From a virus, in the IMG/VR virus record IMGVR_UViG_3300042558_004148, positions 207,416 to 271,415 of that record: a stretch of 64,000 bases of DNA. One strand, written 5' to 3'. The notes under the pieces are model-generated. The model was given only the letters and a program-made list of their open reading frames with translations. It was not told the DNA's origin and made no database searches. Position 1 is the first letter of the stretch. Every line of letters begins with the position of its first letter. Positions 2,241 to 52,217 of the stretch are shown here, one piece after another. The translations under genes and the position numbers were made by a program.

Positions 2241-2306
2241 GAATTATATATCATAATATTTTTTCTTCCCGAAAGATTAACCTATATTTGTTAAAAATAT
2301 TAATAT

Positions 2307-2669
2307 ATGAAGAGTTACTATAGAGTGTGTCATCATGAGACATTACAAGGACTTTGGTATGCATTTAATGGTGATTTCACCGGATTAATCCACGACAAGT
2401 TCAAATTCTGTCTAAACAATGGTCTGGAAATGGAATTTGATGAATCCCTGGTTGGGTGGTTATCTGCCGTTGAATCGCAGGAAGACCTATATGCATGGTT
2501 TACAGAGCATGATATAATGGAATTACAAAAGCATGGGTGGTTCATCCATGAATTTGAATGTGAGGATGTCAGATTCTATGAAAGATTCCAGCATCTTGTT
2601 ATAAAGCAGGAGACAGCAAAAGTAAAAAGATTAATAGAACTTAATTTTGAATATGATGAAAGTAGATGA
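2307..2669 (+). CDS. hypothetical protein
   Basis: ORF track; downstream of a TAnnTTTG promoter at ~2283. Confidence 0.45.
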   Translation: MKSYYRVCHHETLQGLWYAFNGDFTGLIHDKFKFCLNNGLEMEFDESLVGWLSAVESQEDLYAWFTEHDIMELQKHGWFIHEFECEDVRFYERFQHLVIKQETAKVKRLIELNFEYDESR

Positions 2670-2940
2670 GAGCAAACTGACATTTGAGGGAAGTATGAAT
2701 TATATCCTGCAGATAATGCCGGATGACGAAGATCCCGATGAGATATACGTCAATCAATATCAACCAAGGAGAAACAAAGTATGGGTTGGTGCTATGAATA
2801 AAGAAGAACTGATACCTCAGGTGGAGGAAACGATTGAGAGAATGAAAATTGCAATCTCGCATTTACAGGAATACCTGGACGGTAAGAGAGACTATGTCTA
2901 CTATTGGGAAAACGAAAAAGAACCTTGGAAAAGTAAATAG
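2647..2940 (+). CDS. hypothetical protein
   Basis: ORF track; short overlap with the upstream gene. Confidence 0.4.
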   Translation: MNMMKVDESKLTFEGSMNYILQIMPDDEDPDEIYVNQYQPRRNKVWVGAMNKEELIPQVEETIERMKIAISHLQEYLDGKRDYVYYWENEKEPWKSK

Positions 2941-2943
2941 AAT

Positions 2944-4083
2944 ATGGAAAGAAAATTAGCATCAGTACAGAAAGTTAGAGAAATACTCCCAATAGAGGGA
3001 GCGGATGCAATAGAAATTGCAGTTATTAATTCATGGAAGGTTATCACAAAAAAAGGTGAATATCAGCCGGGAGATCTTTGCATTTATTGCGAGATTGATT
3101 CATTTCTCCCAATTAAAGAAGAATTTGAATTTCTCAGAAAGAGCTCGTTTAAAAAGATGGATGGTCAAGAAGGATTCCGCCTTAAAACAATTAGATTGAG
3201 AGGTCAAGTTAGTCAGGGTCTTATATTGCCATTATCAGTTTTAAATGGCGAGGAGGAAATGACTGTTGGTATCAGCCAGCAACCATGGGGAGATCAATTA
3301 CAACTTGGACCTTATGACGATGCACTTGTTATAGAAGAGGGAGCTGATGTTACTGAGATTTTAGGGATAGTCAAGTACGATCCACCAATCCCAGCTCAGC
3401 TTGCAGGTAAGGTTAAAGGTTACTTCCCATCATTCATTCGTAAGACCGACGAGGAAAGGGTTCAAAATCTAACTAATGAATATTTTGGGTGGAAAATACA
3501 ATCAGCTACTCAATTCTACGTTACTGAGAAATTGGACGGAAGCTCTGCAACATTCTATTTCAAGGATGGCGTATTTGGTGTGTGTTCTAGAAATCTAGAA
3601 TTGGCTGAGCCTGAAGCATTCGTTGAAGGTGAAATGGTAATGTGTCAGGATGGTGTTGAACGACCTAAGCAGGAAAATTCCTTCTGGAAAGTTGCTCAGC
3701 ATCTACAACTTGGAGATTGGATGGCAAAACAAGATGCCAACTATGCTATCCAAGGGGAGTTGATTGGCGAAGGAATTCAGGGAAATCCATATAAAATAAA
3801 AGGTCACACCGTTAGATTCTTTAATGCATTCAATATCGATACACAGGAATATCTAGGACTGGATGAATTTGAGGGCTTAATAAAATCAATGGGATTGGAA
3901 ACTGTGCCTATCTTAGATCGTAATTTTCTTCTTCCTAATACAGTTGATGATCTATTGGAATATGCTGACGCAAAATCAGTTTTAAATCCGGATTTCGATA
4001 GAGAGGGAGTCGTTATCAGAAGTCTTGATAGAAAGATTAGCTTCAAAGCTATCTCCAATAAATTCCTATTAAAAGAGAAATAA
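2944..4083 (+). CDS. ATP-dependent RNA ligase (nucleotidyltransferase superfamily)
   Basis: Ligase motif I KxDG (TEKLDGSS), a motif IV-like segment (IQGELIGEG) and a motif V-like segment (YKIKGHTVRF). The N-terminal VQKV..IEGAD...GDLCIYCEIDS stretch is typical of phage Rnl-type ligases. Confidence 0.65.
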   Translation: MERKLASVQKVREILPIEGADAIEIAVINSWKVITKKGEYQPGDLCIYCEIDSFLPIKEEFEFLRKSSFKKMDGQEGFRLKTIRLRGQVSQGLILPLSVLNGEEEMTVGISQQPWGDQLQLGPYDDALVIEEGADVTEILGIVKYDPPIPAQLAGKVKGYFPSFIRKTDEERVQNLTNEYFGWKIQSATQFYVTEKLDGSSATFYFKDGVFGVCSRNLELAEPEAFVEGEMVMCQDGVERPKQENSFWKVAQHLQLGDWMAKQDANYAIQGELIGEGIQGNPYKIKGHTVRFFNAFNIDTQEYLGLDEFEGLIKSMGLETVPILDRNFLLPNTVDDLLEYADAKSVLNPDFDREGVVIRSLDRKISFKAISNKFLLKEK

Positions 4084-4544
4084 TGGGGAGAAATAAAATA
4101 AAGGAGCCATTAGTTAACGAGAGGATAGGAATTCTTCTTAAAGCTAATGGCTTTAATAGAAGTGTTGCTAATTATAATTGGGAATCAGATTCAGAAGGCG
4201 ATATGGTTTTTGAATCGGAGCTTCAGTATCCGAATAATTCCGAATTTACACATAATCCTGAGATTGATCCAGCTATAATTGAATTTGAAAAATGGCAGGA
4301 TTCCCTTATTCCTAGACCTTCACAGGAGGTTGTTAGATACTGGTTATCATCGTATAAATCAATTGAAATTGAAATTGAAATTGATAAAACAGCGGAACCA
4401 AAATATTGTTTCTCCGTTTGGTCTTATTCTGATTTCGGTAACTGGGAAGAAATAAAACAGGATGAGTGGTATTTATACCGGACTCGTCAAGAGGCTATCG
4501 ACGAAGCTATTGAATTAGCTTTAAAAAGCTTACAATACAAATAA
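4083..4544 (+). CDS. hypothetical protein
   Basis: ORF track; contains an in-frame (gaaatt)3 repeat encoding IEIEIEID. Confidence 0.45.
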   Translation: MGRNKIKEPLVNERIGILLKANGFNRSVANYNWESDSEGDMVFESELQYPNNSEFTHNPEIDPAIIEFEKWQDSLIPRPSQEVVRYWLSSYKSIEIEIEIDKTAEPKYCFSVWSYSDFGNWEEIKQDEWYLYRTRQEAIDEAIELALKSLQYK

Positions 4545-4545
4545 A

Positions 4546-5010
4546 TTATCTATTGCCTATTCTTTTCTCTATTTGGGTTTTTGCGTGTTTTATTAGATAT
4601 TCATCAACGTTAGGTATTTTATAAAGGAATTCAAGCTCATATTTATAACAGAGTATTTCCTCTATATTTACATCCATTTTTACGCCGAGCATCTTAATTT
4701 TTAAATGCATGGATTCATGGACCAGAACGGAGCATATGTTATTAATATCACCTATCTTCATATCGGAAGCTGATATAAATATTACTCCTTTACCGTTAGT
4801 TTCTACTAAATTAGTTGAATAACCACCATTCCAAAAGGAAATCTTATAGCAGCTTTTGTCTATAAGGTTATAATATGATGTATCTATGGTATTTATTTTA
4901 TCTAATGCTTTACGAACGTCCTTATCCCAGAAATCACCAGCTTGATCTATTTGTATCTGTGCTGATAAATATACGGGAATAAAAAAGAGAATATAAATTA
5001 TGGATTTCAT
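4546..5010 (-). CDS. secreted HExxH zinc-metallopeptidase-like protein
   Basis: N-terminal signal peptide (MKSIIYILFFIPVYLSAQ) and HExxH (VLVHESMHL). Confidence 0.4.
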   Translation of the reverse strand: MKSIIYILFFIPVYLSAQIQIDQAGDFWDKDVRKALDKINTIDTSYYNLIDKSCYKISFWNGGYSTNLVETNGKGVIFISASDMKIGDINNICSVLVHESMHLKIKMLGVKMDVNIEEILCYKYELEFLYKIPNVDEYLIKHAKTQIEKRIGNR

Positions 5011-5043
5011 GATTTATATATTAAAAAATTAAAATTTAAAAAT

Positions 5044-5589
5044 ATGTCTTTAGAGAAAGAACCTGCTAAAAACAGAAAACCAGTACAGAATAACAGAAAA
5101 CCAAAAAAACCAGTGGCTATCAAAAATATCGCGGATGATATAAGCGATCTTGAGGTTGCTAGAAAAATGATTAAAATATACCAAAGTGCACAGGACAGAA
5201 AACTTGAATTCAATTTAAGCTTTGAATCTGTTAAAAAACTTTTGTCATATCATACATGTTATTATACAAATAGGATATTTGATGAGGATGGTCCATTTTC
5301 AAGAAGTTTTGATCGAATCGATTCAGCAAAAGGATATATCGAAAATAATGTGGTTGCATGTACAGTGGATATAAATGGGAAGAAGAGCAACTTGTCAATG
5401 GAGGAAATAGAATGTCTATATACTAAATTGATAAAATATCACACCAAGAAATCCGATCAGACAATAAAATCTGAAATTTCAAATCCAGTAACTTCCATAG
5501 TATCTGAAATCGTTATATCGAACGAGGAACCAGAAGAAATTCGTGATGGTGAAACATCAGAAGGTACCGCTGAAGTGGAAGATATATAG
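5044..5589 (+). CDS. HNH-family nuclease-like protein (possibly inactive, H->R)
   Basis: CYYTNRIF....SFDRIDSAKGYIENNVVACTVDINGKKSN matches the HNH_3 layout (C..C ... D[H]ID ... N ... N..K), but with DRID in place of DHID. Confidence 0.35.
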   Translation: MSLEKEPAKNRKPVQNNRKPKKPVAIKNIADDISDLEVARKMIKIYQSAQDRKLEFNLSFESVKKLLSYHTCYYTNRIFDEDGPFSRSFDRIDSAKGYIENNVVACTVDINGKKSNLSMEEIECLYTKLIKYHTKKSDQTIKSEISNPVTSIVSEIVISNEEPEEIRDGETSEGTAEVEDI

Positions 5590-5592
5590 TGA

Positions 5593-6444
5593 ATGACTAC
5601 TAAAAAATTTAACAGCTGGCTTACCGAGAATTCCTCGGGTGATACCATGATTGAAATCACTCCGGATATCATTACCAAACTTGAGACCGATACTGGACTT
5701 TCAGAATGGAACAAGAATAAATATTTTAGTAGTGGTCAACCCGCATACAATAGTCAAAATTCATATTCCTCTAGAGGAGCAATTTTATATCAGCAGCCGG
5801 ATAAAAAATTAAGGATCATTATACCATTAATGAAGCCAAGTAATATAAAAAACAATTTTACATCACTTGAGGATTTACTGGAGGTTAATTTGATTCCCGA
5901 TTATATGGCAGGATCTTTTTATATAACAATAGAATTTAGTGAGAATCCCGACATTAAACCAGGATCACTAATAATGGAGGAGGTTAAGAATTGGAACAAC
6001 AGACACAGAATATCTTTCCAGTATAATGCAAAAGATTATAGTGATCTACTTGCTGTCGTAAATAAGGGTCTGGATGAGGCATTCGAATTTCTAAAAGATA
6101 TCAGAATAGTAATACCATCGGATATAAAGAAGATACCCGGGGTTAAAGCATACATGGAGGATAAGGTTAGAGAAATCTATAATAAAATGCTGGAAGAGAT
6201 AAGGGAAACAGGTGATGCTGTGGAAGATATCGACGATAATATATTTGCTCAGCTTATAATAACTATTCTGGAAGAACATCCAAATCTAATGGACGATTTC
6301 AACAACCTACCAGAGAAAGCCAAAGATAAATGGCTTCATGGGGTTAAGGAGATATTTCCTGACGGTAAAATAGAAATAAACAAGAAGTCGATAGACTCAA
6401 TAAAAGCTTTTCTTAACGTTAAAAATTCTTTCTATCTCATATAA
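5593..6444 (+). CDS. hypothetical protein
   Basis: ORF track. Confidence 0.45.
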   Translation: MTTKKFNSWLTENSSGDTMIEITPDIITKLETDTGLSEWNKNKYFSSGQPAYNSQNSYSSRGAILYQQPDKKLRIIIPLMKPSNIKNNFTSLEDLLEVNLIPDYMAGSFYITIEFSENPDIKPGSLIMEEVKNWNNRHRISFQYNAKDYSDLLAVVNKGLDEAFEFLKDIRIVIPSDIKKIPGVKAYMEDKVREIYNKMLEEIRETGDAVEDIDDNIFAQLIITILEEHPNLMDDFNNLPEKAKDKWLHGVKEIFPDGKIEINKKSIDSIKAFLNVKNSFYLI

Positions 6445-6842
6445 TGAAAAATATCAAGGATTATAAAGTTTTTGAATCAACAGAGGAAGAGGAAGGTACT
6501 GAAAGATTAGCTCTCCTTATTGATTATAATAGATCCAGGATACTGAAATTCTTTTCGGATAAAGGCATGGATTCAGACTTCGTTGCTATAGAAGATCCAG
6601 AAGAATTTATAATGGAATACTGGCCGAGATCTCTTGATGGTTCAATATCAAATAGGATATCATATTACATTGACGAATTTAGATCAATTATATCCAAGGA
6701 ACTAAAAACTGGCATAGAATGGAGATTCGGACCGAACGGAAACGTACAGAGACTAATATTTACTCTGGATAGCCCGATATCTCAGGAATACTACGATGGG
6801 ATATTAAAATACATCGAGACCAAAGAAAAATTAAAATATTAG
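6444..6842 (+). CDS. hypothetical protein
   Basis: ORF track; ATGA overlap with the upstream gene. Confidence 0.45.
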   Translation: MKNIKDYKVFESTEEEEGTERLALLIDYNRSRILKFFSDKGMDSDFVAIEDPEEFIMEYWPRSLDGSISNRISYYIDEFRSIISKELKTGIEWRFGPNGNVQRLIFTLDSPISQEYYDGILKYIETKEKLKY

Positions 6843-6843
6843 A

Positions 6844-6873
6844 ATCCGAGAATCCTCTCGGATTTATTTTTTA
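6844..6873 (+). terminator. rho-independent terminator
   Basis: Hairpin ATCCGAGA-atcc-TCTCGGAT followed by TTATTTTTTAT. Confidence 0.55.
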
Positions 6874-6914
6874 TACTGTAACAATTTATCATATTTGCCA
6901 TATAAGATTCAATA
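6862..6914 (+). repeat. direct repeat copy 1 (promoter-containing), upstream of galE
   Basis: ATTTATTTTTTATACTGTAACAATTTATCATATTTGCCATATAAGATTCAATA; about 48/54 identical to copy 2 at 7990..8043. Confidence 0.7.
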
Positions 6915-6944
6915 TATTCCTCGGTAAATAATAAATAAAATAAT

Positions 6945-7967
6945 ATGAAAATACTTGTAACAGGCGGTTTGGGATTTATAGGTTCACATACCGTTGTAGC
7001 TTTACAAAATGAAGGATTTGAAGTTATCGCTGTTGATAATTTATCCAATTCTTCACTTGAAGTTTTAAATGGAATTGAACGAATCACCGGAACAAAACCA
7101 GTATTTGAAAACATCGATTTGCGAGATAAAAGTTCGGTTCAAAATCTCTTCAAAAAATACGAAGAAATCTCCGGTGTTATTCATTTTGCCGCTTCAAAAG
7201 CAGTGGGCGAAAGTGTAGAAAATCCGTTGTTGTATTACGAAAACAACATCAACCCATTGATCTACTTGTTGCAAGAATTACAGAAAAAACCTGCTGCACA
7301 TTTTATTTTTAGTTCGTCTTGCACGGTATACGGTCAATCTGAAAAAATGCCTATTACTGAAGATGCACCAACACAGGTAGCTTTATCACCCTATGGAAAC
7401 ACCAAGCAAATTGGGGAAGAAATCATAACCGATGTGGCAAAAGTTGGTGCTATCAATGCTATATTGTTGCGTTATTTCAATCCGATTGGCGCTCATGAAT
7501 CAGCAGAAATTGGAGAATTGCCACTGGGGGTTCCTCAAAATTTAGTACCATTTATTACACAAACAGCCATTGGAATTCGTGAAAGGTTATCAGTATTTGG
7601 AAACGACTATCCCACAACAGACGGAACCGCGGTTAGAGATTATATTCATGTAGTCGATTTAGCCAAAGCACATGTTGTGGCACTTCAACGATTGTTGCAT
7701 CATCAAAATATTGAAAATGTAGAGATTTTTAATTTAGGTACTGGAAAAGGAAGTTCGGTATTGGAAGTGATCCAGGCGTTTGAAAAAGTGACTGAGCAAA
7801 AATTAAATTACCAAATTGTAGGACGCCGTGAGGGTGATATCACAGAAGCTTACGCAGATACAGGGAAAGCCAACACAGTTTTGGGATGGAAAACCGAATT
7901 ATCACTAGAAGATGCATTAGCCTCAGCTTGGAAATGGGAAAAAAAGATTAGCGAAAATCCTTTATAA
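6945..7967 (+). CDS. galE: UDP-glucose 4-epimerase
   Basis: MKILVTGGLGFIGSH (Rossmann GxxGxxG) and the SDR YxxxK region. Full-length GalE-like at 340 aa. Composition and codon usage are visibly less AT-rich than the surrounding phage genes. Confidence 0.85.
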   Translation: MKILVTGGLGFIGSHTVVALQNEGFEVIAVDNLSNSSLEVLNGIERITGTKPVFENIDLRDKSSVQNLFKKYEEISGVIHFAASKAVGESVENPLLYYENNINPLIYLLQELQKKPAAHFIFSSSCTVYGQSEKMPITEDAPTQVALSPYGNTKQIGEEIITDVAKVGAINAILLRYFNPIGAHESAEIGELPLGVPQNLVPFITQTAIGIRERLSVFGNDYPTTDGTAVRDYIHVVDLAKAHVVALQRLLHHQNIENVEIFNLGTGKGSSVLEVIQAFEKVTEQKLNYQIVGRREGDITEAYADTGKANTVLGWKTELSLEDALASAWKWEKKISENPL

Positions 7968-7989
7968 AAATAAATCTGAACCCCACTGA

Positions 7990-8043
7990 ATTTATTTTTT
8001 TATATCGTAACCATTTATTATATTTGCCATATAAGATTAAATA
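7990..8043 (+). repeat. direct repeat copy 2 (promoter-containing), upstream of smpB
   Basis: ATTTATTTTTTTATATCGTAACCATTTATTATATTTGCCATATAAGATTAAATA; near-identical to copy 1. Confidence 0.7.
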
Positions 8044-8064
8044 CTATATCTTATCAAAGTTAAA

Positions 8065-8508
8065 ATGGCAAAAAAACACGTAAATATTGTAAACCGAAAA
8101 GCTAAATTCGAATATGAATTTATAAGAACCTTAGTTGCAGGTATTCAATTGATGGGATCCGAGGTTAAGTCTATAAGGGACTCAAGAGTTGATTTTTCGG
8201 ATTCGTACTGTTATTTTAATAATGGAGAGTTATACATCAAGAATCTAAGCATCACGCAAATGGATTCGCATTATTCACACGAAGCAAAAAGAGATCGAAA
8301 ACTTCTACTGAAGAAAAGAGAACTAACCAAATTTGAAAAAGATCTGGTTAAGAACATGTCAATAGTTCCGTACAGAATCTTCGAAACTGATAAGGCTATG
8401 CTTAAAATGGAAATAGCTCTAGGAAGGGGTAAAAAACTTTACGATAAGAGGGAGACTATAAAAAATAGGGACATAGAAAGAGACACTCAGAAACAACTTA
8501 AAGGATAA
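8065..8508 (+). CDS. smpB: SsrA-binding protein SmpB
   Basis: NRKAKFEYEF..GIQLMGSEVKSIRDSRVDFSDSYCYF, RDRKLLLKKREL and GRGKKLYDKRETIK align position-by-position with bacterial SmpB. Confidence 0.85.
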   Translation: MAKKHVNIVNRKAKFEYEFIRTLVAGIQLMGSEVKSIRDSRVDFSDSYCYFNNGELYIKNLSITQMDSHYSHEAKRDRKLLLKKRELTKFEKDLVKNMSIVPYRIFETDKAMLKMEIALGRGKKLYDKRETIKNRDIERDTQKQLKG

Positions 8509-8512
8509 GGTC

Positions 8513-9046
8513 ATGGAAAAAATTGAATGGTGCATAGAACAGCACAGAAAAACCAATCACTGGTATGATGAGTATTTGCCGTATGAATTTCATCTAAGAA
8601 TGGTAGCACAAGCGGCTAAAGATTTTATTCATTTGGTACCTGATTCAAATGATGGTGAAACATCATTCCGGGATGATATTATCCTGGCTGCACATGGCCA
8701 CGATTTAATAGAAGATACGAGGGTTTCATATAATGACGTAAGAGAGGTTCTTGGTCACACTCCAGCTGATATCATCTATGCAGTATCTAACGAAAAAGGA
8801 AAGAATCGTAAGGAACGAGCAAACGACAAATATTACGGGGGTATCAGAAATACGCCAGGTGCAGTCTTTGTTAAACTTGCAGATCGAATTGCCAATGTTC
8901 AATATTCTAAGATGACTAAATCAAGAATGTTTGAAATGTACAAAAAGGAAAATGATAATTTCTTAACAAGTCTTGGTTTTGTTGAAGGCCAAGCACATCC
9001 ACTTGGTGAGATGTGTCACTATTTGGAAAATCTATTCATTGATTAA
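8513..9046 (+). CDS. HD-domain (p)ppGpp hydrolase-like protein (small alarmone hydrolase / Mesh1-SpoT type)
   Basis: AAHGHDLIEDT, EVLGHTPADIIYAVS and VKLADRIANV match the SpoT/Mesh1 hydrolase HD motifs (HDxxED ... KLADRLhN). Confidence 0.7.
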   Translation: MEKIEWCIEQHRKTNHWYDEYLPYEFHLRMVAQAAKDFIHLVPDSNDGETSFRDDIILAAHGHDLIEDTRVSYNDVREVLGHTPADIIYAVSNEKGKNRKERANDKYYGGIRNTPGAVFVKLADRIANVQYSKMTKSRMFEMYKKENDNFLTSLGFVEGQAHPLGEMCHYLENLFID

Positions 9047-9068
9047 TAATAAATATTAAAATTAAATT

Positions 9069-9401
9069 ATGAAAAAAGCATTTGTATTTTTATTGGGCTT
9101 ATCTTTAAGCTTATTAATTTCCTGCGAAAAAGAGGGAGTTACACGAAACAAAATAGAAGGAAATGAATCAGGTTTACCACCGGAACTTAAAGGTCTAAAA
9201 ATCTACGACGTATCTATTGGTGGTGGTTCATATGTTAAAGTTGGTGTTTTGGATAATGAGGTGAAAGGACTAACATATAGAGAAGGTAAGCATACCGGAG
9301 CTATTGTTATGGTTCACAAAAATCAAAACCGAGTAATTGAGATCGAAACGATTATTTCAGAAAATGATTCCATCATGGTTATTAAAAAAGCTATCAAGTA
9401 A
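9069..9401 (+). CDS. lipoprotein
   Basis: Signal peptide with lipobox LLISC. Confidence 0.5.
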   Translation: MKKAFVFLLGLSLSLLISCEKEGVTRNKIEGNESGLPPELKGLKIYDVSIGGGSYVKVGVLDNEVKGLTYREGKHTGAIVMVHKNQNRVIEIETIISENDSIMVIKKAIK

Positions 9402-9610
9402 TGGTATCTGCTGATTTCGTAAGAATGATGAGAGAAAGTGATGGTACCCCGAGAAATAAGGAGTATGTTGAACAGCTAGCGAGACAACATCAATATATTC
9501 TTGAATGGGATAAAGGTATTGCATATGCTGAGACCAGATGTGGTTGGAGAGAAGAAATGCAAAGGGACAGAGAAGCGGTAAGAAGAGCAAGAGCTAGAGG
9601 ATGTTGGTAA
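9401..9610 (+). CDS. hypothetical protein
   Basis: ORF track; ATGG overlap. Confidence 0.4.
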   Translation: MVSADFVRMMRESDGTPRNKEYVEQLARQHQYILEWDKGIAYAETRCGWREEMQRDREAVRRARARGCW

Positions 9611-9770
9611 TAGTTGGTAGTTATGAATAGTCAAGAAAAAGATCAAATTTCAATAATCATTATGGTTGCCTTATATGCATTTGCATTAGGGTTTCTTACA
9701 GCATCAGTATTATTGGACGATAGAGAAGTTACCGAGGAGGATATGATAGAATTAAATCAACCACAATATT

Positions 9771-10253
9771 ATGAATAATAATCAACCATGGTTAAGAGCC
9801 AGTATAAAAATAACTAAGCCAATCCTATTAATAGATATGGACGGGGTTATTTGTGATTTTGACAAGAGAGCAAAAGAATTAGAGCAGCAAGGTGTTAAAG
9901 GTCATAGTCTTTTTAGACATCCTGATGCATACAGGGCTTTGGAACCTATAGAAGGTGCTATAGATGCATGGCATGAACTACAGGAAAAATACGAGACGTA
10001 TATCTTAAGCACTCCACCATGGAGCAATCCTGATGCTTGGTCGGAAAAAAGAATCTGGGTTCAACAACATCTAGGAGATTCGGCTAAGAAAAAATTAATC
10101 CTATGTCATAATAAGGGATTAGTTAAGGGTGATTTTCTAATCGACGATAGAATAGCCAACGGTGTTGCAGACTTTGAAGGTGAGCATATTCATTTTGCAA
10201 CCGAGAAATTTCCAGGATGGGAAACAGTATTAGAATATCTTAAATCTAAGTAA
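9771..10253 (+). CDS. HAD-family 5'(3')-deoxyribonucleotidase-like protein
   Basis: Motif I LLIDMDGVICDF and a C-terminal FLIDDR (Asp pair) are typical of NT5C-type HAD nucleotidases. Confidence 0.55.
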   Translation: MNNNQPWLRASIKITKPILLIDMDGVICDFDKRAKELEQQGVKGHSLFRHPDAYRALEPIEGAIDAWHELQEKYETYILSTPPWSNPDAWSEKRIWVQQHLGDSAKKKLILCHNKGLVKGDFLIDDRIANGVADFEGEHIHFATEKFPGWETVLEYLKSK

Positions 10254-10254
10254 C

Positions 10255-10623
10255 ATGAATAAATTATTCATTCTTGCAGGTTCTTCTGGTAGTTATGACG
10301 ATTACGCAAGGATCAACATTGGAGTTTATGACTCCGAGGATGCAGCTAAGGAAGCTGGTGATAAATTTCTAAAGAGAAGAAATGATATCCTAAATAACGT
10401 CAACAATAAATGCCCATTAACACCGGATCAATTGAGAATCGTGGAGGAAACTTACGAAACTGATGGACTTACCGAATCTGAGATTGATTCATATTATTCA
10501 TGGTGGAATATCAAGAATATGCTGGAAGAAATAAATAATACCTATTATATCGAGGAGTTCATGCTAAACGTTGACACTTCAGAAAACATAATGGACTTTG
10601 AGGTAGGTGAGGAATATATTTAA
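10255..10623 (+). CDS. hypothetical protein
   Basis: ORF track. Confidence 0.45.
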   Translation: MNKLFILAGSSGSYDDYARINIGVYDSEDAAKEAGDKFLKRRNDILNNVNNKCPLTPDQLRIVEETYETDGLTESEIDSYYSWWNIKNMLEEINNTYYIEEFMLNVDTSENIMDFEVGEEYI

Positions 10624-10849
10624 AAGCTTAAGAGATCAATATTATGATGTTATATTAAGTAAGATCATGATACCTAGGGAAGAACTTAATGAGGTTGAAA
10701 TGGAGATTATAGATGCTGGATTTGAGTTAATGAAGGAGAAACTCGAGGACATTAAAATTCTAAACGATGACATAAAGAGACTCTCGATAGAGAATGCTAA
10801 TCTAAAGGCATATAACGACGATAAAGACTACGGAGATGAAGAAGAATAA
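10607..10849 (+). CDS. hypothetical protein
   Basis: ORF track. Confidence 0.4.
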   Translation: MRNIFKSLRDQYYDVILSKIMIPREELNEVEMEIIDAGFELMKEKLEDIKILNDDIKRLSIENANLKAYNDDKDYGDEEE

Positions 10850-10882
10850 TTTTTTATCTCCGTCTTTTTTTGTTATATTTGC
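10850..10882 (+). promoter_or_regulatory. phage promoter: upstream element TTTTTTATCTCCGTC plus -7 TATATTTG
   Basis: Matches the recurring element + N9 + TAnnTTTG architecture; about 15 nt before ATG 10897. Confidence 0.55.
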
Positions 10883-10896
10883 TAAAAAATAAAGAT

Positions 10897-11628
10897 ATGT
10901 TTAAATTTTACGAGGTTGGTGGAAAGGTTAGAGACGAGATTTTAGGATTACAGTCTAAAGACGTTGATTATGTTGCAGTTCCGAATGATGCTTTATTAAG
11001 CAAATATAAGGAGGCATATGAAATGTTTCTGTCTCTCGAGAATTATCTTACAACAAATGGATTTGAAATATTCCTATCTACTCCTGATTGCTATACAATT
11101 AGAGCGAAGTTTCCGAAAGACCATGTATATTCAGGCGTAGCGGACTTCGTAATGGCACGAAAAGAAGTTGGTTATGTTACAGGCACAAGAACTCCAATAG
11201 TTAAGCCAGGCACTCTATATGACGATCTAGAGCGAAGAGATTTTACCCTCAATGCTCTTGCTAAGGATGACGATGGAACCATCATAGACTTTTTTAATGG
11301 GATAGACGATCTTAAAGCTGGTGTATTGAAAACACCTCTTGATTGCAAGGTGACATTTGACGACGATCCGCTAAGAATTCTGAGAGCTATTAGATTTTCT
11401 ATAACCAAGGGATTTACCATGACACCACATATGGCCATCGTTATTGATTCCTACAATTATGACGAAAAAATGTCAGTGGTTTCAACCGAGAGAATCAGGG
11501 AGGAATTATATAAATGTTTCAAAGAGAATACATTAGGAACGCTAAGAATTCTTAATGAATTTCCAACTCTAAGAAATTACATTTTTGAAAAAACTGATCT
11601 TTGGTTAAAGCCAACTAACGAAAAATAG
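10897..11628 (+). CDS. tRNA nucleotidyltransferase (CCA-adding enzyme, head domain only)
   Basis: MFKFYEVGGKVRDEILGLQSKDVDYVAV matches the GGxVRD...DxD head motif and RRDFTLNALA matches RRDFTINA. The track start at 10870 is a TTG lying inside the -7 box, so the ATG at 10897 is preferred. Confidence 0.8.
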   Translation: MFKFYEVGGKVRDEILGLQSKDVDYVAVPNDALLSKYKEAYEMFLSLENYLTTNGFEIFLSTPDCYTIRAKFPKDHVYSGVADFVMARKEVGYVTGTRTPIVKPGTLYDDLERRDFTLNALAKDDDGTIIDFFNGIDDLKAGVLKTPLDCKVTFDDDPLRILRAIRFSITKGFTMTPHMAIVIDSYNYDEKMSVVSTERIREELYKCFKENTLGTLRILNEFPTLRNYIFEKTDLWLKPTNEK

Positions 11629-11633
11629 ATAAT

Positions 11634-12371
11634 ATGGCTGATAATATATTCTGTCCGGTGTGCAAGTGTCAATTACACGTAACACATAGTGCAAGGTATG
11701 AATCTAGAGAAGAGCACATCTCAAATCCGAATGGTCCATTTTCTATGAAGGATGGATATCAATGTACCAATGTTAGTTGGTGTGAAGCTTCATATCTAAA
11801 TTATACGTGGATACATGATGGTGATTATTATTCAAATCCACCAGAAGGTATCAGCTACTCTGAGGCTTCCAAGAGATTGAAAGCAGCTAGTGTATCTGGA
11901 ATGGGTTATGCACTTAATTCATGGGAACATTATTACGAATTAGGAAAACTTAATGTCGACAAAAGAAAAAAGACTGTCTATATCGGAAAATACATGATTA
12001 AGATAGAGCCTAAAACTTACGGCTATGATTACCCAATCGAAAAACAATATATGCCAAGAAGATTTGGGTGGAAATTTGAATTTTTCCAGAGGACCAGTGA
12101 TGGATGCTACACAAACATAATACCAACATACAGAATGGTTAGGTATTGTTTGAGACAGTTCAATATGAATTATCGCAACATAAAACAAAACAGCTCTTCC
12201 AGCAATGGATCAATTAAGGAGGCTTTATCGATGATAAATTGTACCAATTGGGGTAGAACCCCTGATGATAGACTTTATGCTAAAATATCATCATTCCTCG
12301 TTAGACTATTCTACCCAAAGAAGGTTAAATACGTAAGGGAAATAGCTGAATCAAATCAAATCAAATATTAA
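11634..12371 (+). CDS. hypothetical Cys-rich protein
   Basis: ORF track; N-terminal CPVCKC...H. Confidence 0.45.
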   Translation: MADNIFCPVCKCQLHVTHSARYESREEHISNPNGPFSMKDGYQCTNVSWCEASYLNYTWIHDGDYYSNPPEGISYSEASKRLKAASVSGMGYALNSWEHYYELGKLNVDKRKKTVYIGKYMIKIEPKTYGYDYPIEKQYMPRRFGWKFEFFQRTSDGCYTNIIPTYRMVRYCLRQFNMNYRNIKQNSSSSNGSIKEALSMINCTNWGRTPDDRLYAKISSFLVRLFYPKKVKYVREIAESNQIKY

Positions 12372-12404
12372 TTTTTTATCTCCGTATAAATTGAATATAT
12401 TTGC
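12372..12404 (+). promoter_or_regulatory. phage promoter: TTTTTTATCTCCGTA - N9 - TATATTTG
   Basis: -7 box at 12396..12403; ATG at 12425. Confidence 0.55.
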
Positions 12405-12424
12405 TAATAATTAAAAATAAAATT

Positions 12425-12844
12425 ATGGCGGTAATATCAATTAGTTATGATGGTGGTGGTAAAGAATATGATGATGACGATAACATCATCTCAGAAACTC
12501 CAATAGTATACCAATTCGTAGAATTATCTAATCAGAAGGAGGGAAGAATCAAATTCAATAGTGGTAACTTCGTCAAGGATTGGTATGACGCAAAGAAAAA
12601 ATATTTGGAAACCGAGGAAGAGGATCCAGTATTTTGTCATTCATCATCAGTTGATCACTTTCTTATGGATGGAGCTAAGTATGACAGCGCTTATCTTCAT
12701 GTAGTGGACGGTAAACCTGTTCTTAAATACTTAGACCGAACCAAAGATGATTGGTACATCGATCCGATTGGGGATGGCTGGGAATTTTTTGTCAATGAAG
12801 GTGAAACTCCAACATTCGATGAACTTAAGGAATCTTGCAAATAA
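12425..12844 (+). CDS. hypothetical protein
   Basis: The track start 12401 is a TTG inside the -7 box, so the ATG at 12425 is preferred. Confidence 0.45.
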   Translation: MAVISISYDGGGKEYDDDDNIISETPIVYQFVELSNQKEGRIKFNSGNFVKDWYDAKKKYLETEEEDPVFCHSSSVDHFLMDGAKYDSAYLHVVDGKPVLKYLDRTKDDWYIDPIGDGWEFFVNEGETPTFDELKESCK

Positions 12845-13479
12845 TTATGAAAACAACTATCAAATATAAGGTCTTATATTACCACGGAGGAATGGGCGAA
12901 ATCAAGGTTGATTACGATTGTCCGGATTTTAGTGATATTGAGGTTGAACCATTAGTTCTAAATGGCAAGCAGGTAACCGATGGACATATTCACACAATAG
13001 AATCCCAGATTGATGAGTGGGTAGGTGAATTTGACAAGAAGGAGTGGATGAATTCCAATGACATCATGACCATATTTGATTGGCAAGTGGTGAGTGCAAA
13101 ATCTAAGGAATCTCCAAACATAAACTTGGTGGTCAAAGAAAAAAAATTAACTCAATCGGAGATGGTTGGTCTATTCGTTCAAATGTCTTCAATGTCAGAC
13201 GATTTAAAGCTGGAATTTATTGCTGTCTATAAGGAACTAAAACCCACAATCAAAAATTTAAAATTCGATAAGCAAATTGATATCACATTCAAGGGATTAA
13301 ATATTGGTATGAAAGCTGCAAGTCAGGCATATAAGTACATCAGTGAGTTTTCAAAGACCATGAGTGGCATGAAAACAGATGACTATAAATCAATATCTTG
13401 GGGTGAAACCATCTTTGATAAGGACAAGATGCTTGATGATGCGAAAGATACAACGATTAAAAAATTAGCTAATGACTAG
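12835..13479 (+). CDS. hypothetical protein
   Basis: ORF track. Confidence 0.45.
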   Translation: MQIIMKTTIKYKVLYYHGGMGEIKVDYDCPDFSDIEVEPLVLNGKQVTDGHIHTIESQIDEWVGEFDKKEWMNSNDIMTIFDWQVVSAKSKESPNINLVVKEKKLTQSEMVGLFVQMSSMSDDLKLEFIAVYKELKPTIKNLKFDKQIDITFKGLNIGMKAASQAYKYISEFSKTMSGMKTDDYKSISWGETIFDKDKMLDDAKDTTIKKLAND

Positions 13480-13822
13480 AAGTCTAAAATTCTATAGAGA
13501 TCCAGATGGATGGTTTGTTGATCTACCTGAATGGGAAGGTTCTAAAGCTGATCTACAGATGGTTGCAGGAGCTGACGTATTTCTGGATATAATGTCACAG
13601 GGAGAAAATGAGGTTTATTTAACATTATCAGATACTCCAATGGATAACTGCAGCCAATTAACATTCAAAGAAATTGGGAGGTTGGAAGGATTTGAATTAG
13701 GAGAGGGAGCATGGTACGTTCTTAATGAGTATATTGGGATAGAATATAATCATGATATGTGGCTATGTGATGTCACTAAATTTGTATTTGGCGAATTTCC
13801 TAAAATAATATACTTTATATGA
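13472..13822 (+). CDS. hypothetical protein
   Basis: ORF track. Confidence 0.45.
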   Translation: MTRSLKFYRDPDGWFVDLPEWEGSKADLQMVAGADVFLDIMSQGENEVYLTLSDTPMDNCSQLTFKEIGRLEGFELGEGAWYVLNEYIGIEYNHDMWLCDVTKFVFGEFPKIIYFI

Positions 13823-14679
13823 ATAAGCTAGAATACGTAACGAGACAATTAGCGAGAGCTGAAAGAAAAAGATACGAACATTATGTTGTTAGTAGGGTAT
13901 TTCATTTGTTGAATGATCTGTCCATTAAATTCATAACCCAGCAGTATGTAAATCGTCCTAGCGGTAGAGCTTTAACCGACATGTACTTTCCTCAATTTGG
14001 TGTTCATATAGAAGTGGACGAGCCACACCACAACAATCAAATTCAGGAAGATAAGCTAAGAGAACTCGATATAGTAAATGCAACTGGTCACGACATCATA
14101 AGGATAACAGTTTCTAATCAAACGATCGAAGATGTTAATGCGCAGATAGATTATGTTGTTAACCTAATAAAATCTAGGAAGTTAAATGATCCAGATTTTA
14201 AAGAATGGGATCCTGAACTGGAGCATAACACCGAAACATATTTAGCAAAAGGGAATATAGATCTTTCGGATAATTGCTCCTTCATGACCATGGTCGATGG
14301 AGCTAATTGTTTTGGTAATAGTTATAAACCTGGTGGAATTTGGAAGGGCGGAGCCAAGCACCAACACGAGGATAAGATCATATGGTTCCCGAAGTTATAT
14401 CCAAATAAAAAATGGATTAATACTATATCGGATGACGAGGAGATGATTACCGAAAAATCGGTTGATTCGGACATCACTGAAAAGTATGTTGATAAAATGA
14501 AATCAAAAGATCAGCCAAATCGTATAGTCTTTGCAAGAGTAAAGAGTCCGCTTGGTGAAGTTATGTACAGGTTTAGAGGAGAATATAAATTTGATACTGG
14601 TGCATCCAATTACGATGACGGTCTAATATTCAGAAGAATAGCAACTTCAGTAAAAACTTATAGAGACAATAGAATATAA
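13819..14679 (+). CDS. hypothetical protein with N-terminal DUF559/endonuclease-like domain
   Basis: LTDMYFPQFGVHIEVDEPHH...DKLRELDIVNATGHDIIRI resembles the DUF559 / Vsr-like nuclease fold (…iEvDG.H……D..Rd..L…G..vlR). Confidence 0.35.
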   Translation: MNKLEYVTRQLARAERKRYEHYVVSRVFHLLNDLSIKFITQQYVNRPSGRALTDMYFPQFGVHIEVDEPHHNNQIQEDKLRELDIVNATGHDIIRITVSNQTIEDVNAQIDYVVNLIKSRKLNDPDFKEWDPELEHNTETYLAKGNIDLSDNCSFMTMVDGANCFGNSYKPGGIWKGGAKHQHEDKIIWFPKLYPNKKWINTISDDEEMITEKSVDSDITEKYVDKMKSKDQPNRIVFARVKSPLGEVMYRFRGEYKFDTGASNYDDGLIFRRIATSVKTYRDNRI

Positions 14680-14807
14680 ATTAAACAACTAATATATGAC
14701 AGCAAAAGATTTAATTTCGGAATTATCTAAAATGGATCCTGATAAGATTGTAATACTGACAGATCCTGATGGAATTGGATGGTCAAATATAGGCAAAGTT
14801 ACCGAAG

Positions 14808-15056
14808 GTGTCTCTGATATTAAGATATCTGAGGACGATAACGCATTTGATAATTAATATGGCAGCAATTCAGATAGTTAAGATGGATCATTCAATCATA
14901 GATTGGTTTTACATGATGATGGATCTTGGTAACGAATCTCTAGAATATAGAGAAGTAACGATAAAAGAATTTAAAGAGAATCTACTAAGATCTTTACAAA
15001 CAGGTCCGGAGAAAAAAGAAATCGTATGGATAAAAGAAGGGGAGGAGATAAAATAA
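14808..15056 (+). CDS. hypothetical protein
   Basis: ORF track; start uncertain. Confidence 0.3.
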   Translation: MSLILRYLRTITHLIINMAAIQIVKMDHSIIDWFYMMMDLGNESLEYREVTIKEFKENLLRSLQTGPEKKEIVWIKEGEEIK

Positions 15057-49231: not shown

Positions 49232-49311
49232 GGTCCTGGAGCTTAATCTGACGTGGAAGTCAGGTCTGCCTCTAAAACAGATAGCATCGGGTTCGAATCC
49301 TGCTAGGATCA
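49232..49311 (+). tRNA. tRNA-like gene A (80 nt, non-canonical D region), anticodon loop C-U-CUA-A-A (amber-suppressor-like CUA)
   Basis: Acceptor GGTCCTG pairs with TAGGATC (two G.U pairs). T arm CGGG-TTCGAAT-CCTG. Anticodon stem TCTG/CAGA closes the loop CTCTAAA. Discriminator A. No encoded CCA. Confidence 0.45.
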
Positions 49312-51734: not shown

Positions 51735-51864
51735 AGTCAGGTGGCGGAATTGGTAGACGCTAGACAGGTAACCAACTACAACTGTAATAAACCCGCTGAT
51801 CACGGTTAATAAGAACAGCTCTGTCGCAGAGGTTGGTATACAGGTTCGAATCCTGTCCTGGCTA
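51735..51864 (+). tRNA. tRNA-like gene C (about 130 nt): first 28 nt identical to gene B; insertion of about 57 nt
   Basis: 5' AGTCAGGTGGCGGAATTGGTAGACGCTA is identical to B. 3' ACAGG-TTCGAAT-CCTGT + CCTGGCT + A. The acceptor pairs with one G.U pair. Confidence 0.45.
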
Positions 51865-52009
51865 CTTAGCAAGGCATAAACGATAAGGAAAATCTGTCAC
51901 AAGTTTATGTTAAGTTGCAGACAGACCGAAATGCTTACGGTTAACAGGGCTTACCCATAAAGTCCAGAGAGCATAATCTAACGGGTGACTGATGGAAAGA
52001 CATCAAAAT

Positions 52010-52096
52010 AGTCAGGTGGTGTAATAGGCAACACCCTTCATTATCAGGCCCCGTAAGGCTGGAAGGACGACGCAGGTTCGAATCCTGTCCTGACCA
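52010..52096 (+). tRNA. tRNA-like gene D (87 nt) with an extended (about 32-nt) anticodon-arm-like hairpin
   Basis: Acceptor AGTCAGG/CCTGACC (A1.C72). D arm GTGT-AATAGGCA-ACAC. Long hairpin CCTTC...CAG(G)CC-CCGTAA-GGCTG...GAAGG. T arm GCAGG-TTCGAAT-CCTGT. Confidence 0.45.
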
Positions 52097-52217
52097 CTAA
52101 AACAACTAGCGGAGTAGGCACAAATCTTCGTTAACAGTGGTATTTAAGTAGGTTTGGGGATGCTGTGTAGTCCATTGAAAACTAAACCGAAGATTGCTTA
52201 TGTAGTTGTTTTTATAC

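What the first reader, a model, noticed from the sequence alone, without database searches (positions are those of the whole stretch)
8065..8508. Full-length SmpB in a phage with no recognisable tmRNA gene nearby
The ORF aligns residue-for-residue with bacterial SmpB, including the C-terminal GKKxxDKR tail. I could not identify a tmRNA in the window. The tRNA-like region at 49.2 kb lacks an acceptor pair or tag reading frame consistent with ssrA. The phage may therefore top up or hijack host trans-translation, or a divergent tmRNA lies elsewhere. The neighbouring gene (8513..9046) is a SpoT/Mesh1-type (p)ppGpp hydrolase-like HD protein. Both are stress/translation control functions, and both sit behind the duplicated promoter element that also drives galE.
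Basis: partly seen in the sequence, partly recalled or inferred. Interest (0 to 1): 0.6.

Follow-up and report, generated by a model that had tools for sequence, protein, structure and literature searches.

The report
Phage SmpB gene, no tmRNA nearby
A large phage of Bacteroidota carries an intact, strongly conserved copy of the ribosome-rescue protein SmpB with no partner tmRNA gene within about 84 kb, but SmpB genes have already been reported in huge phages, so this is a solid yet ordinary new example.

Summary
Window 8065..8508 (+) encodes a full-length 147-aa SmpB, above NCBIfam's equivalog cut-off. Its GKKLYDKRETIKNRDIERD tail matches the Bacteroidota consensus. It is under strong purifying selection: 9 of 9 and 13 of 14 nucleotide differences to two near-identical contigs are synonymous.

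It belongs to an all-viral clade of 44 IMG/VR SmpBs. The nearest cellular SmpBs are Bacteroidota, at 50-54% identity.

I found no tmRNA in the window or in about 18 kb of flanks taken from near-identical contigs. ARAGORN, Rfam and a phage-tmRNA profile HMM were all negative. The only sub-threshold ARAGORN call (51735-52097) joins the ends of two separate tRNA-like elements and was rejected. The rest of the genome, probably at least 270 kb, could not be read.

Related phages (L010/L011, L055) do carry canonical tmRNAs next to SmpB.

The neighbouring gene is a small-alarmone-hydrolase/Mesh1-type HD protein. The duplicated promoter is real and flanks a galE insertion.

Al-Shayeb et al. 2020 already report SmpB and tmRNA in huge phages, so this is a new member of a known kind.

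Most likely function: it sustains trans-translation in infected cells, using host tmRNA or a phage tmRNA encoded elsewhere.

The oddest thing in the window is a family of tRNA-Leu-like scaffold RNAs at 51-52.3 kb.

The parts
8065..8508 (+). smpB: full-length SsrA-binding protein, 147 aa
   Evidence: Purifying selection. Placement in the viral clade.
8513..9046 (+). HD-domain protein of the small alarmone hydrolase (SAH)/Mesh1/SpoT-hydrolase type, 4 nt downstream of smpB
   Evidence: PDB 6yvc/6z3n/6z3o (SAH) at E 4e-7 to 1e-6. Mesh1 3nqw at E 7e-7. TIGR00691 spoT_relA hydrolase region at E 7e-6, below its cut-off. PHROG 990 metal-dependent phosphohydrolase at E 5e-22. The HGHDLIED and KLADRIAN motifs are read directly from the sequence. 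Adjacency to smpB is conserved in L001 and L002, and the gene lies within 3.3-3.5 kb in L007, L009 and L023.
8007..8038 (+). Promoter-like element upstream of smpB, copy 2 of the duplicated roughly 56-nt element. It contains TATATTTG at 8019-8026.
   Evidence: The motif fits the Bacteroidota -7 consensus TAnnTTTG (consensus recalled from memory). Eight or nine elements of the same architecture sit upstream of genes in the window.
6878..6909 (+). Copy 1 of the duplicated element, upstream of galE. Its -7 box reads CATATTTG.
6842..6865 (+). Terminator-like hairpin that ends the upstream operon, just before promoter copy 1
   Evidence: The hairpin is also present in L001, directly upstream of its single promoter copy.
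6945..7967 (+). galE-like NAD-dependent epimerase. It is an insertion relative to the near-identical contig L001.
   Evidence: Pfam Epimerase/GDP_Man_Dehyd. L001 matches window 1-6914 and then 7990-14860, with the overlap being the repeated element. The L001 gene list shows no epimerase between the 132-aa gene and smpB.
10870..11628 (+). tRNA nucleotidyltransferase (CCA-adding enzyme), in the same plus-strand gene block
   Evidence: Pfam PolyA_pol head domain. PHROG 24229 at E 4e-64.
2944..4083 (+). RNA ligase, in the same gene block
   Evidence: Pfam RNA_ligase/PHA02142 on the identical gene in L001.
49232..49311 (+). Degenerate amber-suppressor-like tRNA(CUA). Not a tmRNA.
   Evidence: Rfam tRNA model, 25.4 bits. 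ARAGORN at 85% threshold calls tRNA(cta). Aligns with the tRNA(cta) genes of L019 and L021. A promoter-like TAAATTTG sits at 49209.
51735..52097 (+). Sub-threshold ARAGORN 'tmRNA' call. Rejected: it spans two independent tRNA-like elements (51735-51864 and 52010-52096) plus a conserved spacer.

Best explanation
The gene encodes a working SmpB. An ancestor of a group of huge Bacteroidota phages captured it long ago from a Bacteroidota host, and it has been kept by selection since. It is transcribed from a phage promoter, with a small alarmone hydrolase immediately downstream. The block also holds RNA ligases, a CCA-adding enzyme, a Thg1-like enzyme and NAD-salvage genes, so it reads as a 'keep translation running' island.

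Proposed mechanism (inferred, not shown). During infection, mRNAs are truncated by phage or host nucleases and by RNase-type defence toxins. Ribosomes stall at their ends. The phage SmpB binds the tRNA-like domain of alanyl-tmRNA and delivers it with EF-Tu to the empty A site. Its C-terminal tail occupies the empty mRNA channel, and the ribosome is released.

No tmRNA gene lies in the roughly 84 kb examined, and the phage protein keeps the Bacteroidota tail and core motifs almost unchanged. In this lineage the partner is therefore most likely the host's own tmRNA, with the phage supplying the protein subunit.
For: - Shown: profile membership above curated cut-offs and homology to solved SmpB structures over the whole length.
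- Shown: the core and tail motifs are conserved in 44 phage SmpBs and are nearly identical to the consensus of 80 Bacteroidota SmpBs.
- Shown: dN/dS is about 0 to 0.02 against near-identical contigs.
- Shown: the gene falls in an all-viral clade of 44 sequences next to Bacteroidota. The best cellular hits are all Bacteroidota at 50-54% identity.
- Shown: it has its own promoter of a class that recurs in the window.
- Shown: no tmRNA in the window or flanks by ARAGORN, Rfam or a phage-tmRNA HMM with working positive controls.
- Shown: none of the closest relatives' 20-kb loci contains one (L001, L002, L007, L009, L023, L078).
- Shown: the context consists of RNA-repair and translation genes.
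- Literature: huge phages carry SmpB and tmRNA among their translation genes (PMC7162821).
Against: - Only about 84 kb of a genome that is probably at least 270 kb was examined. Contigs of 0.2-1 Mb carry the identical protein, and the closest IMG/VR relative is a 270,629-bp contig.
- Phage tmRNAs are common in IMG/VR.
- Two related lineages have a canonical tmRNA within 1 kb of smpB (L010/L011 and L055).
- A phage tmRNA elsewhere in this genome is therefore a real possibility.
- Nothing here measures binding, expression or activity.
Confidence: 0.5

Rival explanations
1. Same biochemical role, but the partner is a phage-encoded tmRNA lying outside the roughly 84 kb examined. The phage would then bring a complete SmpB-tmRNA pair, possibly with its own tag sequence.
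For: - Related phage lineages carry canonical tmRNAs (84-85 bits on RF00023) within 1 kb of smpB: L010/L011 and L055.
- Further phage tmRNAs occur in tRNA arrays of contigs that share this phage's tRNA-like scaffold motif: L096, L148, L163.
- Al-Shayeb et al. report both genes in huge phages.
Against: - None was found in the window, the flanks, or the homologous 8-20-kb loci of the five closest relatives, including their tRNA-like regions.
- Among phage-clade smpB loci with 47% identity or more, only the 2 lineages above show a tmRNA within 10 kb.
Confidence: 0.35
2. The phage SmpB is an antagonist. It sequesters host tmRNA or blocks the ribosomal A site. This would stop the host from tagging phage proteins for degradation, or stop tmRNA-linked sensing.
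For: There is no partner RNA nearby. Phage development is known to interact with trans-translation (recalled: lambda-immP22 and Mu depend on ssrA; see also the remark in PMC7162821).
Against: A decoy would be expected to lose or alter the tail that drives accommodation. Here the GKKLYDKRE.IK.RDI.R tail and core motifs match the functional Bacteroidota consensus almost position for position, and they are conserved across 44 phage sequences. dN/dS of about 0 is compatible with either reading.
Confidence: 0.07
3. The SmpB works with one of the phage's own non-canonical tRNA-like RNAs (the tRNA-Leu-like scaffold elements at 51.06-52.28 kb) instead of an alanine-charged tmRNA.
For: - Four paralogous elements keep an acceptor stem, a T arm and, in the first two, a tRNA-Leu-type D arm, while the anticodon region is replaced by variable inserts.
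- ARAGORN at 90% threshold reports a tmRNA-like call here.
- LeuRS, like AlaRS, does not read the anticodon (recalled from memory).
Against: - There is no G3:U70 pair.
- The predicted tag ends ...NAYG and has no hydrophobic or Ala-Ala end.
- Each element closes its own acceptor stem locally.
- The conserved spacer is flanked by an unrelated tRNA in L387.
- L011 has a scaffold element and also a canonical tmRNA and SmpB on one contig, so the scaffold does not replace tmRNA.
- The folding z-scores are unremarkable.
Confidence: 0.03
4. The gene is a recently captured host passenger with no role for the phage, or the window is bacterial rather than viral.
For: SmpB is a universal bacterial gene, and smpB-ssrA junctions often flank prophages. 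Loci L070-L081 look like this, with tmRNA directly after an smpB of 33-43% identity.
Against: - The nearest cellular homologues are only 50-54% identical, whereas dozens of viral contigs carry 55-97% identical copies.
- The clade is all-viral.
- Synteny is conserved across phages of 270-430 kb.
- Purifying selection is strong.
- The window is made of small phage-type ORFs with PHROG hits.
Confidence: 0.02

Closest known systems
SmpB genes of huge phages (Al-Shayeb et al. 2020, Nature 578:425; PMC7162821) and Lak megaphages
   Same: These are phage-borne full-length SmpBs in genomes above 200 kb, set among other translation genes. The paper's supplementary GenBank files annotate 'SsrA-binding protein' genes whose best hits are Bacteroidota. 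One has an N-terminus (VNINNRKARFDYEFIRTLTAGMQLMGSEVKAIRD) that matches locus L007, which is 61% identical to this protein and syntenic with it. GenBank huge phages LR756501/LR756503, LR745206 and the Lak phages give 39-50% tblastn identity.
   Different: No GenBank phage is closer than 50% identity. This lineage pairs smpB directly with a small alarmone hydrolase and shows no tmRNA within about 84 kb. The paper mentions SmpB in one sentence and reports no functional or partner analysis.
Bacterial SmpB (TIGR00086; structures 7ljp, 1j1h/4v8q, 7acj and others)
   Same: Same length, same profile match above the equivalog cut-off, and the same conserved EVKS(I/L)R, RKLLL and GKK..DKR motifs.
   Different: It is encoded by a virus and diverges 46-50% from any cellular copy. 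No adjacent or nearby ssrA gene was seen.
Phage-encoded tmRNA genes (for example in L010/L011 and L055, and many IMG/VR contigs)
   Same: They are the other half of the same rescue system, carried by related phages, sometimes next to smpB.
   Different: Absent from this window and its flanks.
Small alarmone hydrolases / Mesh1 (PDB 6yvc, 6z3n, 6z3o, 3nqw, 5vxa), for the neighbouring gene
   Same: A single-domain HD hydrolase of about 180 aa with HDxxED and KLADRxxN motifs.
   Different: It scores below the Pfam HD_4 and NCBIfam cut-offs. Its substrate is untested.

Membership tests
SmpB (SsrA-binding protein; PF01668 / TIGR00086) | Whole-protein profile score above the curated cut-off | tested here: met
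   TIGR00086: 157.3 bits against 119.1. PRK05422: 155.1 against 130. PF01668: 152.3 against 27.
SmpB (SsrA-binding protein; PF01668 / TIGR00086) | Full-length core plus a basic C-terminal tail with the GKKxxDKR motif | tested here: met
   The alignment with E. coli and T. thermophilus SmpB keeps G122 K123 K124 ... K128 R129 K133 invariant. The tail matches the Bacteroidota consensus.
SmpB (SsrA-binding protein; PF01668 / TIGR00086) | Gene maintained by selection, not a pseudogene | tested here: met
   0 of 9 and 1 of 14 nucleotide differences are non-synonymous against L001 and L523.
SmpB (SsrA-binding protein; PF01668 / TIGR00086) | A tmRNA partner encoded in the same genome | tested here: inconclusive
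   None was found in 64 kb plus about 18 kb of flanks.
SmpB (SsrA-binding protein; PF01668 / TIGR00086) | Binds the tmRNA tRNA-like domain and supports trans-translation | not testable with these tools
   This needs binding and complementation assays.
tmRNA (RF00023), for the candidate at 51735-52097 | Covariance-model score at or above the gathering threshold of 47 bits | tested here: not met
   No tmRNA-family hit at gathering threshold or listed at E<=10. The phage-tmRNA HMM gives 6.4 bits on the T arm only.
tmRNA (RF00023), for the candidate at 51735-52097 | Acceptor stem with a G3:U70 pair for alanylation | tested here: not met
   The 5' strand AGUCAGG against the 3' strand CCUGACC gives A1/C72, G2-C71 and U3-A70, read.
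tmRNA (RF00023), for the candidate at 51735-52097 | Tag reading frame that ends in a hydrophobic or Ala-rich degradation signal, conserved as one unit with both ends | tested here: not met
   The predicted tag is DKENLSQVYVKLQTDRNAYG. In L387 the same spacer follows an unrelated tRNA.
Small alarmone hydrolase / Mesh1 (RelA-SpoT hydrolase HD domain, PF13328), for 8513..9046 | Profile match above the curated cut-off | tested here: not met
   HD_4: 17.2 bits against 27.2. HD: 17 against 22. TIGR00691: 24.6 against 499, though that is a full-length model.
Small alarmone hydrolase / Mesh1 (RelA-SpoT hydrolase HD domain, PF13328), for 8513..9046 | Significant similarity to solved SAH/Mesh1 structures, with the HD...ED and KLADR motifs | tested here: met
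   6yvc at E 3.6e-7 over residues 19-159. 6z3n/6z3o 'Small Alarmone Hydrolase'. Mesh1 3nqw at E 7e-7. The aligned HD(L/T)(I/L)ED and KL(A/C)DRI(A/T)N motifs appear.
Small alarmone hydrolase / Mesh1 (RelA-SpoT hydrolase HD domain, PF13328), for 8513..9046 | Hydrolysis of (p)ppGpp or (p)ppApp | not testable with these tools
   This needs an enzyme assay.

The most novel reading that the evidence does not exclude
This phage lineage has no tmRNA of its own. Its SmpB is charged with a different RNA partner: one of the phage's tRNA-Leu-like scaffold RNAs, which keep an acceptor stem, D arm and T arm while the anticodon region is replaced by a variable insert. That would be a tmRNA-independent or non-alanine form of ribosome rescue. 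A weaker form of the same reading is that the phage supplies only the protein half in order to take over the host's tmRNA, as part of a counter-defence island.
Probability: 0.04. Interest if true: 0.85.

Novelty: new member of a known kind. Interest (0 to 1): 0.27.

Why it matters
Phage-encoded SmpB has been listed in huge-phage genomes but never studied.

This example shows four things:
- The gene is old in phages, forming a monophyletic viral clade.
- It is under strong purifying selection.
- In one lineage it is coupled to an alarmone hydrolase and to RNA-repair genes rather than to a tmRNA.
- It keeps the host-type tail.

If the complete genome really lacks a tmRNA, this would be a clean case of a virus supplying only the protein half of a two-part host machine. 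It would also give a handle on how much ribosome stalling limits phage yield, or how far RNase-type defences act through stalling.

As it stands, it adds detail to a known category and does not open a new one.

Tried and rejected
1. Finding the rest of the genome. The look-up of encoding contigs returns only +/-10 kb. I gained about 10 kb downstream (L522) and about 8.5 kb upstream (L523, L001). Two look-ups found no record.

2. Looking for tmRNA genes on the relatives' large contigs with exact-pattern scans of IMG/VR. Three patterns were used (GCAACAGAAGTCTC, the phage-type 5' end, the phage-type 3' end). The first two patterns were too unspecific.

3. The ARAGORN sub-threshold tmRNA at 51735-52097. 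Rejected, as set out in the membership test.

4. Short reading frames with double UAAUAA stops inside the 130-nt element 51735-51864, considered as a mini-tag. They were read. I found no comparative support, because the central inserts differ in every copy in every phage. Dropped.

5. TAG or TGA recoding in the window, prompted by the suppressor-like tRNA. TAG ends 14 of 80 long ORFs, and no meaningful ORF fusions appear. There is no evidence of recoding in this region.

6. A close cultured or GenBank relative. Megablast found none, and the best tblastn hit was 50%.

7. Literature on the tRNA-like scaffold elements. Nothing relevant was found.

Full report
**The observation**

Window 8065..8508 (+) is an ATG-initiated ORF of 147 codons.
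- It matches Pfam SmpB over essentially the whole profile: 152 bits, positions 2-142 of 143.
- It exceeds the curated equivalog cut-offs of NCBIfam: TIGR00086 at 157.3 bits against 119.1, and PRK05422 at 155.1 against 130.
- It aligns end to end with solved SmpB structures: 7ljp at E 2.7e-35, and the T. thermophilus and E. coli ribosome-bound chains at E 1e-17 to 1e-26.
- Aligned with E. coli and T. thermophilus SmpB and four phage homologues, the invariant positions include the EVK..R and R.RKLLL core motifs and G122-K123-K124 ... K128-R129 ... K133 of the C-terminal tail.

**Is the gene alive, and whose is it?**

Two near-identical metagenomic contigs carry the gene.
- Against L001 there are 9 nucleotide differences, none of which changes an amino acid.
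- Against L523 there are 14 differences and one conservative E-to-D change. That gives dN/dS of about 0 to 0.02.

A scan of IMG/VR found 89 viral stretches encoding relatives. Many lie on contigs of 100-600 kb, and the closest (78%) is on a 270,629-bp contig. The 5.8-billion-protein collection holds dozens of clusters at 58-97% identity.

The closest cellular SmpBs among the species-representative genomes scanned (the best 80 of about 590 confirmed matches) are all Bacteroidota and reach only 50-54% identity. They include Sphingobacteriales, Cytophagales, Flavobacteriales and Chitinophagaceae.

A rough neighbour-joining tree of 142 distinct sequences puts the window protein in a clade of 44 sequences that are all viral. 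This clade is adjacent to the Bacteroidota sequences.

The consensus of those 44 phage proteins carries the same conserved positions as the consensus of 80 Bacteroidota proteins. The tails compare as follows:
- phage: GKKlYDKRe.iK.rDi.R
- Bacteroidota: GKKLYDKREtiK.rd..R

Taken together, this is an ancient capture from a Bacteroidota host. It has been maintained since in a group of large phages and is still built like a host SmpB.

**Is there a tmRNA?**

*In the window*
- ARAGORN at default settings finds nothing.
- Rfam at gathering thresholds returns only two tRNA-model hits.
- At E<=10, on the whole window and on two sub-regions, no tmRNA family is listed. One caveat applies. Overlapping lower-scoring matches of the tRNA/tmRNA clan are suppressed, so a tmRNA match weaker than the 27-38-bit tRNA hits could be hidden. 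Such a match would still fall below the tmRNA gathering score of 47.

*Phage-tmRNA profile*
- It recovered two phage tmRNAs not used in the model at 140-142 bits.
- In the window it gave only a 29-nt T-arm match of 6.4 bits.
- It gave nothing in L001, L002, L122, L522, L523 and L078, and only 25-nt T-arm matches of 5-6 bits in L007 and L023.

*Flanks*
- The flanks came from contigs carrying identical window proteins: about 10 kb downstream (L522) and about 8.5 kb upstream (L523, L001).
- They are also negative.

*The sub-threshold ARAGORN call*

Lowering ARAGORN's threshold to 90% produces a single candidate, 51735-52097, with the tag DKENLSQVYVKLQTDRNAYG. I reject it for these reasons:
- Its 5' strand belongs to a self-contained tRNA-like element (51735-51864) and its 3' strand to another (52010-52096). 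Each closes its own acceptor stem.
- Position 3:70 would be U-A, not G:U.
- The tag lacks a hydrophobic or Ala-rich end.
- In L387 the same conserved 145-nt spacer follows an unrelated tRNA.
- L011 carries a scaffold element of the same kind together with a canonical tmRNA and SmpB.

**What could not be settled**

The identical SmpB occurs on contigs of 0.2-1 Mb. The roughly 84 kb I could read is therefore perhaps a third of the genome, or less.

Related phages do encode tmRNAs.
- L010/L011 (SmpB 59% identical) has a canonical tmRNA about 500 nt downstream of smpB on the opposite strand: RF00023 at 84.5 bits, tag GNILDKMSAIGLIRAEEVVVA.
- L055 has one about 850 nt upstream, at 85.3 bits.
- More are found in tRNA arrays of contigs that share this phage's tRNA-like motif.

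Against that, the window's closest lineage shows none in any locus I hold. That lineage comprises L001, L002, L007, L009 and L023, which share the order RNA ligase, p181, p283, p132, smpB, SAH.

I therefore give about 0.5 to host tmRNA as the partner and about 0.35 to a phage tmRNA elsewhere in the genome.

**The neighbourhood**

*The HD protein.* The gene 4 nt downstream (8513..9046) is an HD protein.
- Its best solved relatives are small alarmone hydrolases (6yvc, 6z3n, 6z3o, at E 4e-7 to 1e-6) and Mesh1 (3nqw at E 7e-7; 3nr1; 5vxa). The HD..ED and KLADR..N motifs align.
- It stays below the Pfam and NCBIfam cut-offs.
- It should be called SAH/Mesh1-like, with the substrate unknown.
- The pairing with smpB is conserved: adjacent in L001 and L002, and within 3.3-3.5 kb in L007, L009 and L023.

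- A 32-nt core occurs exactly twice in the window, at 6878-6909 and 8007-8038, with none expected by chance.
- L001 has one copy, preceded by the same terminator hairpin, and has no galE. galE is therefore an insertion that brought or duplicated the promoter.
- The element ends in TATATTTG. This fits the Bacteroidota -7 box TAnnTTTG (consensus recalled from memory).
- Eight or nine intergenic sites in the window share the architecture TTTTTT.A...CG-N13-TA.ATTTG, 24-46 nt upstream of gene starts. This agrees with a Bacteroidota host.

*Surrounding genes.*
- An RNA ligase, a 5'-nucleotidase, a CCA-adding enzyme and a Thg1-like enzyme.
- PRPP synthetase and nicotinamide phosphoribosyltransferase.
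- Just upstream of the window: a T4 Rnl1-type ligase, a kinase/phosphoesterase pair and a ClpP-family protease.

This reads as an island for repairing tRNA and keeping translation and NAD supply going. That is the context in which extra ribosome-rescue capacity makes sense.

**Comparison with what is known**

Al-Shayeb et al. [quoted passage not shown]

Their supplementary GenBank files annotate SsrA-binding proteins whose best hits are Bacteroidota. One has an N-terminus that matches L007, a syntenic relative of this window.

GenBank huge phages (LR756501, LR756503, LR745206, the Lak phages) encode SmpBs 39-50% identical to this one.

Full-text searches turned up no functional study of a phage SmpB.

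The finding is therefore a new member of a known kind. The lineage-specific points are the smpB-SAH operon and the absence of a nearby tmRNA.

**Other things seen**

The most unusual feature of the window is not smpB. It is the 49-53 kb region.
- It holds a degenerate amber-suppressor-like tRNA with its own promoter.
- It holds four paralogous tRNA-Leu-like 'scaffold' elements whose anticodon region is replaced by inserts of very different length and sequence. The same scaffold recurs in multiple copies in many IMG/VR contigs.
- It holds non-coding segments that are far better conserved between phages than the proteins are.

I did not resolve what these are.

**Verdict**

Interest is 0.27.

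Noticed in passing
window 51059-51228, 51735-51864, 52010-52096, 52218-52283 (+): Four paralogous tRNA-like elements. Their ends are nearly constant: 5' AGTCAGGTGGCGGAATTGGTAGACGC in the first two (a tRNA-Leu-type acceptor strand plus D arm) and 3' CAGGTTCGAATCCTGTCCTGACTA (T arm plus acceptor strand, with A73). The third has a divergent D arm and the fourth has none. The central region ranges from about 20 to about 125 nt and has no canonical anticodon arm.

One copy shows a compensatory acceptor-stem change (G7-C66 to A7-U66). ARAGORN at default settings calls none of them. The Rfam tRNA model gives 27-38 bits.

The same scaffold occurs in 2-9 copies per locus in many IMG/VR contigs, including the closest relative's contig (L122), and every copy has a different centre. 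Function unknown. I found no literature on it.
   Followed up: partly
window 49209-49311 (+): A promoter-like TAAATTTG sits 16 nt upstream of a tRNA-like element. The element's anticodon loop reads CUCUAAA (CUA, an amber suppressor). It aligns with the tRNA(cta) genes that ARAGORN calls at default settings in related SmpB phages (L019, L021, L057). Here it has an 8-nt expansion of the D arm and a mismatch in the anticodon stem. The window shows no sign of TAG recoding.
   Followed up: partly
window 49324-49558 (+): A non-coding stretch directly after the suppressor-like tRNA. It is 88.5% identical over 235 nt to L045 16645-16878 and to L095, although the SmpBs of those phages are only about 52% identical to this one. 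It is probably a conserved structured RNA. There is no Rfam match.
   Followed up: partly
window 51865-52009 (+): A 145-nt spacer between two tRNA-like elements. It is 90% identical to L387 1885-2031, where it follows an ordinary tRNA, and 99% identical over 89 nt to the start of L011. It looks like an independent small RNA carried in phage tRNA arrays.
   Followed up: partly
window 50144-50845: About 700 nt without a convincing ORF. Some segments are conserved in relatives: 84% over 195 nt with L122, and shorter 86-100% matches in L166, L189, L181 and others. This is possibly a large non-coding RNA. There is no Rfam hit.
   Followed up: no
window 6915-7989 compared with L001 9925-9979: galE (a nucleotide-sugar epimerase) is present in the window but absent from a contig that is 95-98% identical on both sides. 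The insertion is bounded by two copies of the roughly 56-nt promoter element, which makes it a population-level gene-cassette polymorphism. The galE copy of the -7 box carries a T-to-C change, giving CATATTTG.
   Followed up: yes
window 2283, 8019, 16181, 25329, 26840, 39193, 46553, 49209 (+): A recurring intergenic promoter-like architecture, TTTTTT.A...CG-N13-TA(T/A)ATTTG, lying 24-46 nt before gene starts. It fits a Bacteroidota-type -7 box, and the motif is about three-fold enriched in non-coding DNA.
   Followed up: partly
L010 8458-8883 (+): A GOLLD RNA (RF02032, 305 bits) lies about 1.1 kb upstream of smpB. It sits near a 92-nt tRNA-Pro call and a canonical tmRNA, in a phage whose SmpB is 59% identical to this one.
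   Followed up: no
L523 13603-18434; L001 1022-1693 (just upstream of the window start): Immediately upstream of the window the phage encodes a ClpP-family protease, an AAA_33 kinase plus a metallophosphoesterase (a Pnkp-like pair) and a T4 Rnl1-type RNA ligase. Inside the window it encodes a second RNA ligase, a CCA-adding enzyme, a Thg1-like enzyme, PRPP synthetase and NAMPT. Together these look like a tRNA-repair, NAD-salvage and counter-defence island.
   Followed up: partly
L010, L323, L364, L148, L353, L163 (IMG/VR loci): Phage tmRNAs with unusually long tags that do not end in the usual ALAA. Examples are GNILDKMSAIGLIRAEEVVVA, AKLQAVGLIRTEEVTVA, GNTFAKLEAFGLMSAERVAVA and GNTSTFTYEDALAFVGADFAVAA. 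Their 5' end reads GG..TTGATTGG where E. coli (recalled from memory) has GGAUUCGAC.
   Followed up: no
window 52310-52636 (+): A small ORF directly after the last tRNA-like element has two Cys-x2-Cys pairs (CPICP...CYQCG), which suggests a zinc finger. This was read from the sequence only.
   Followed up: no
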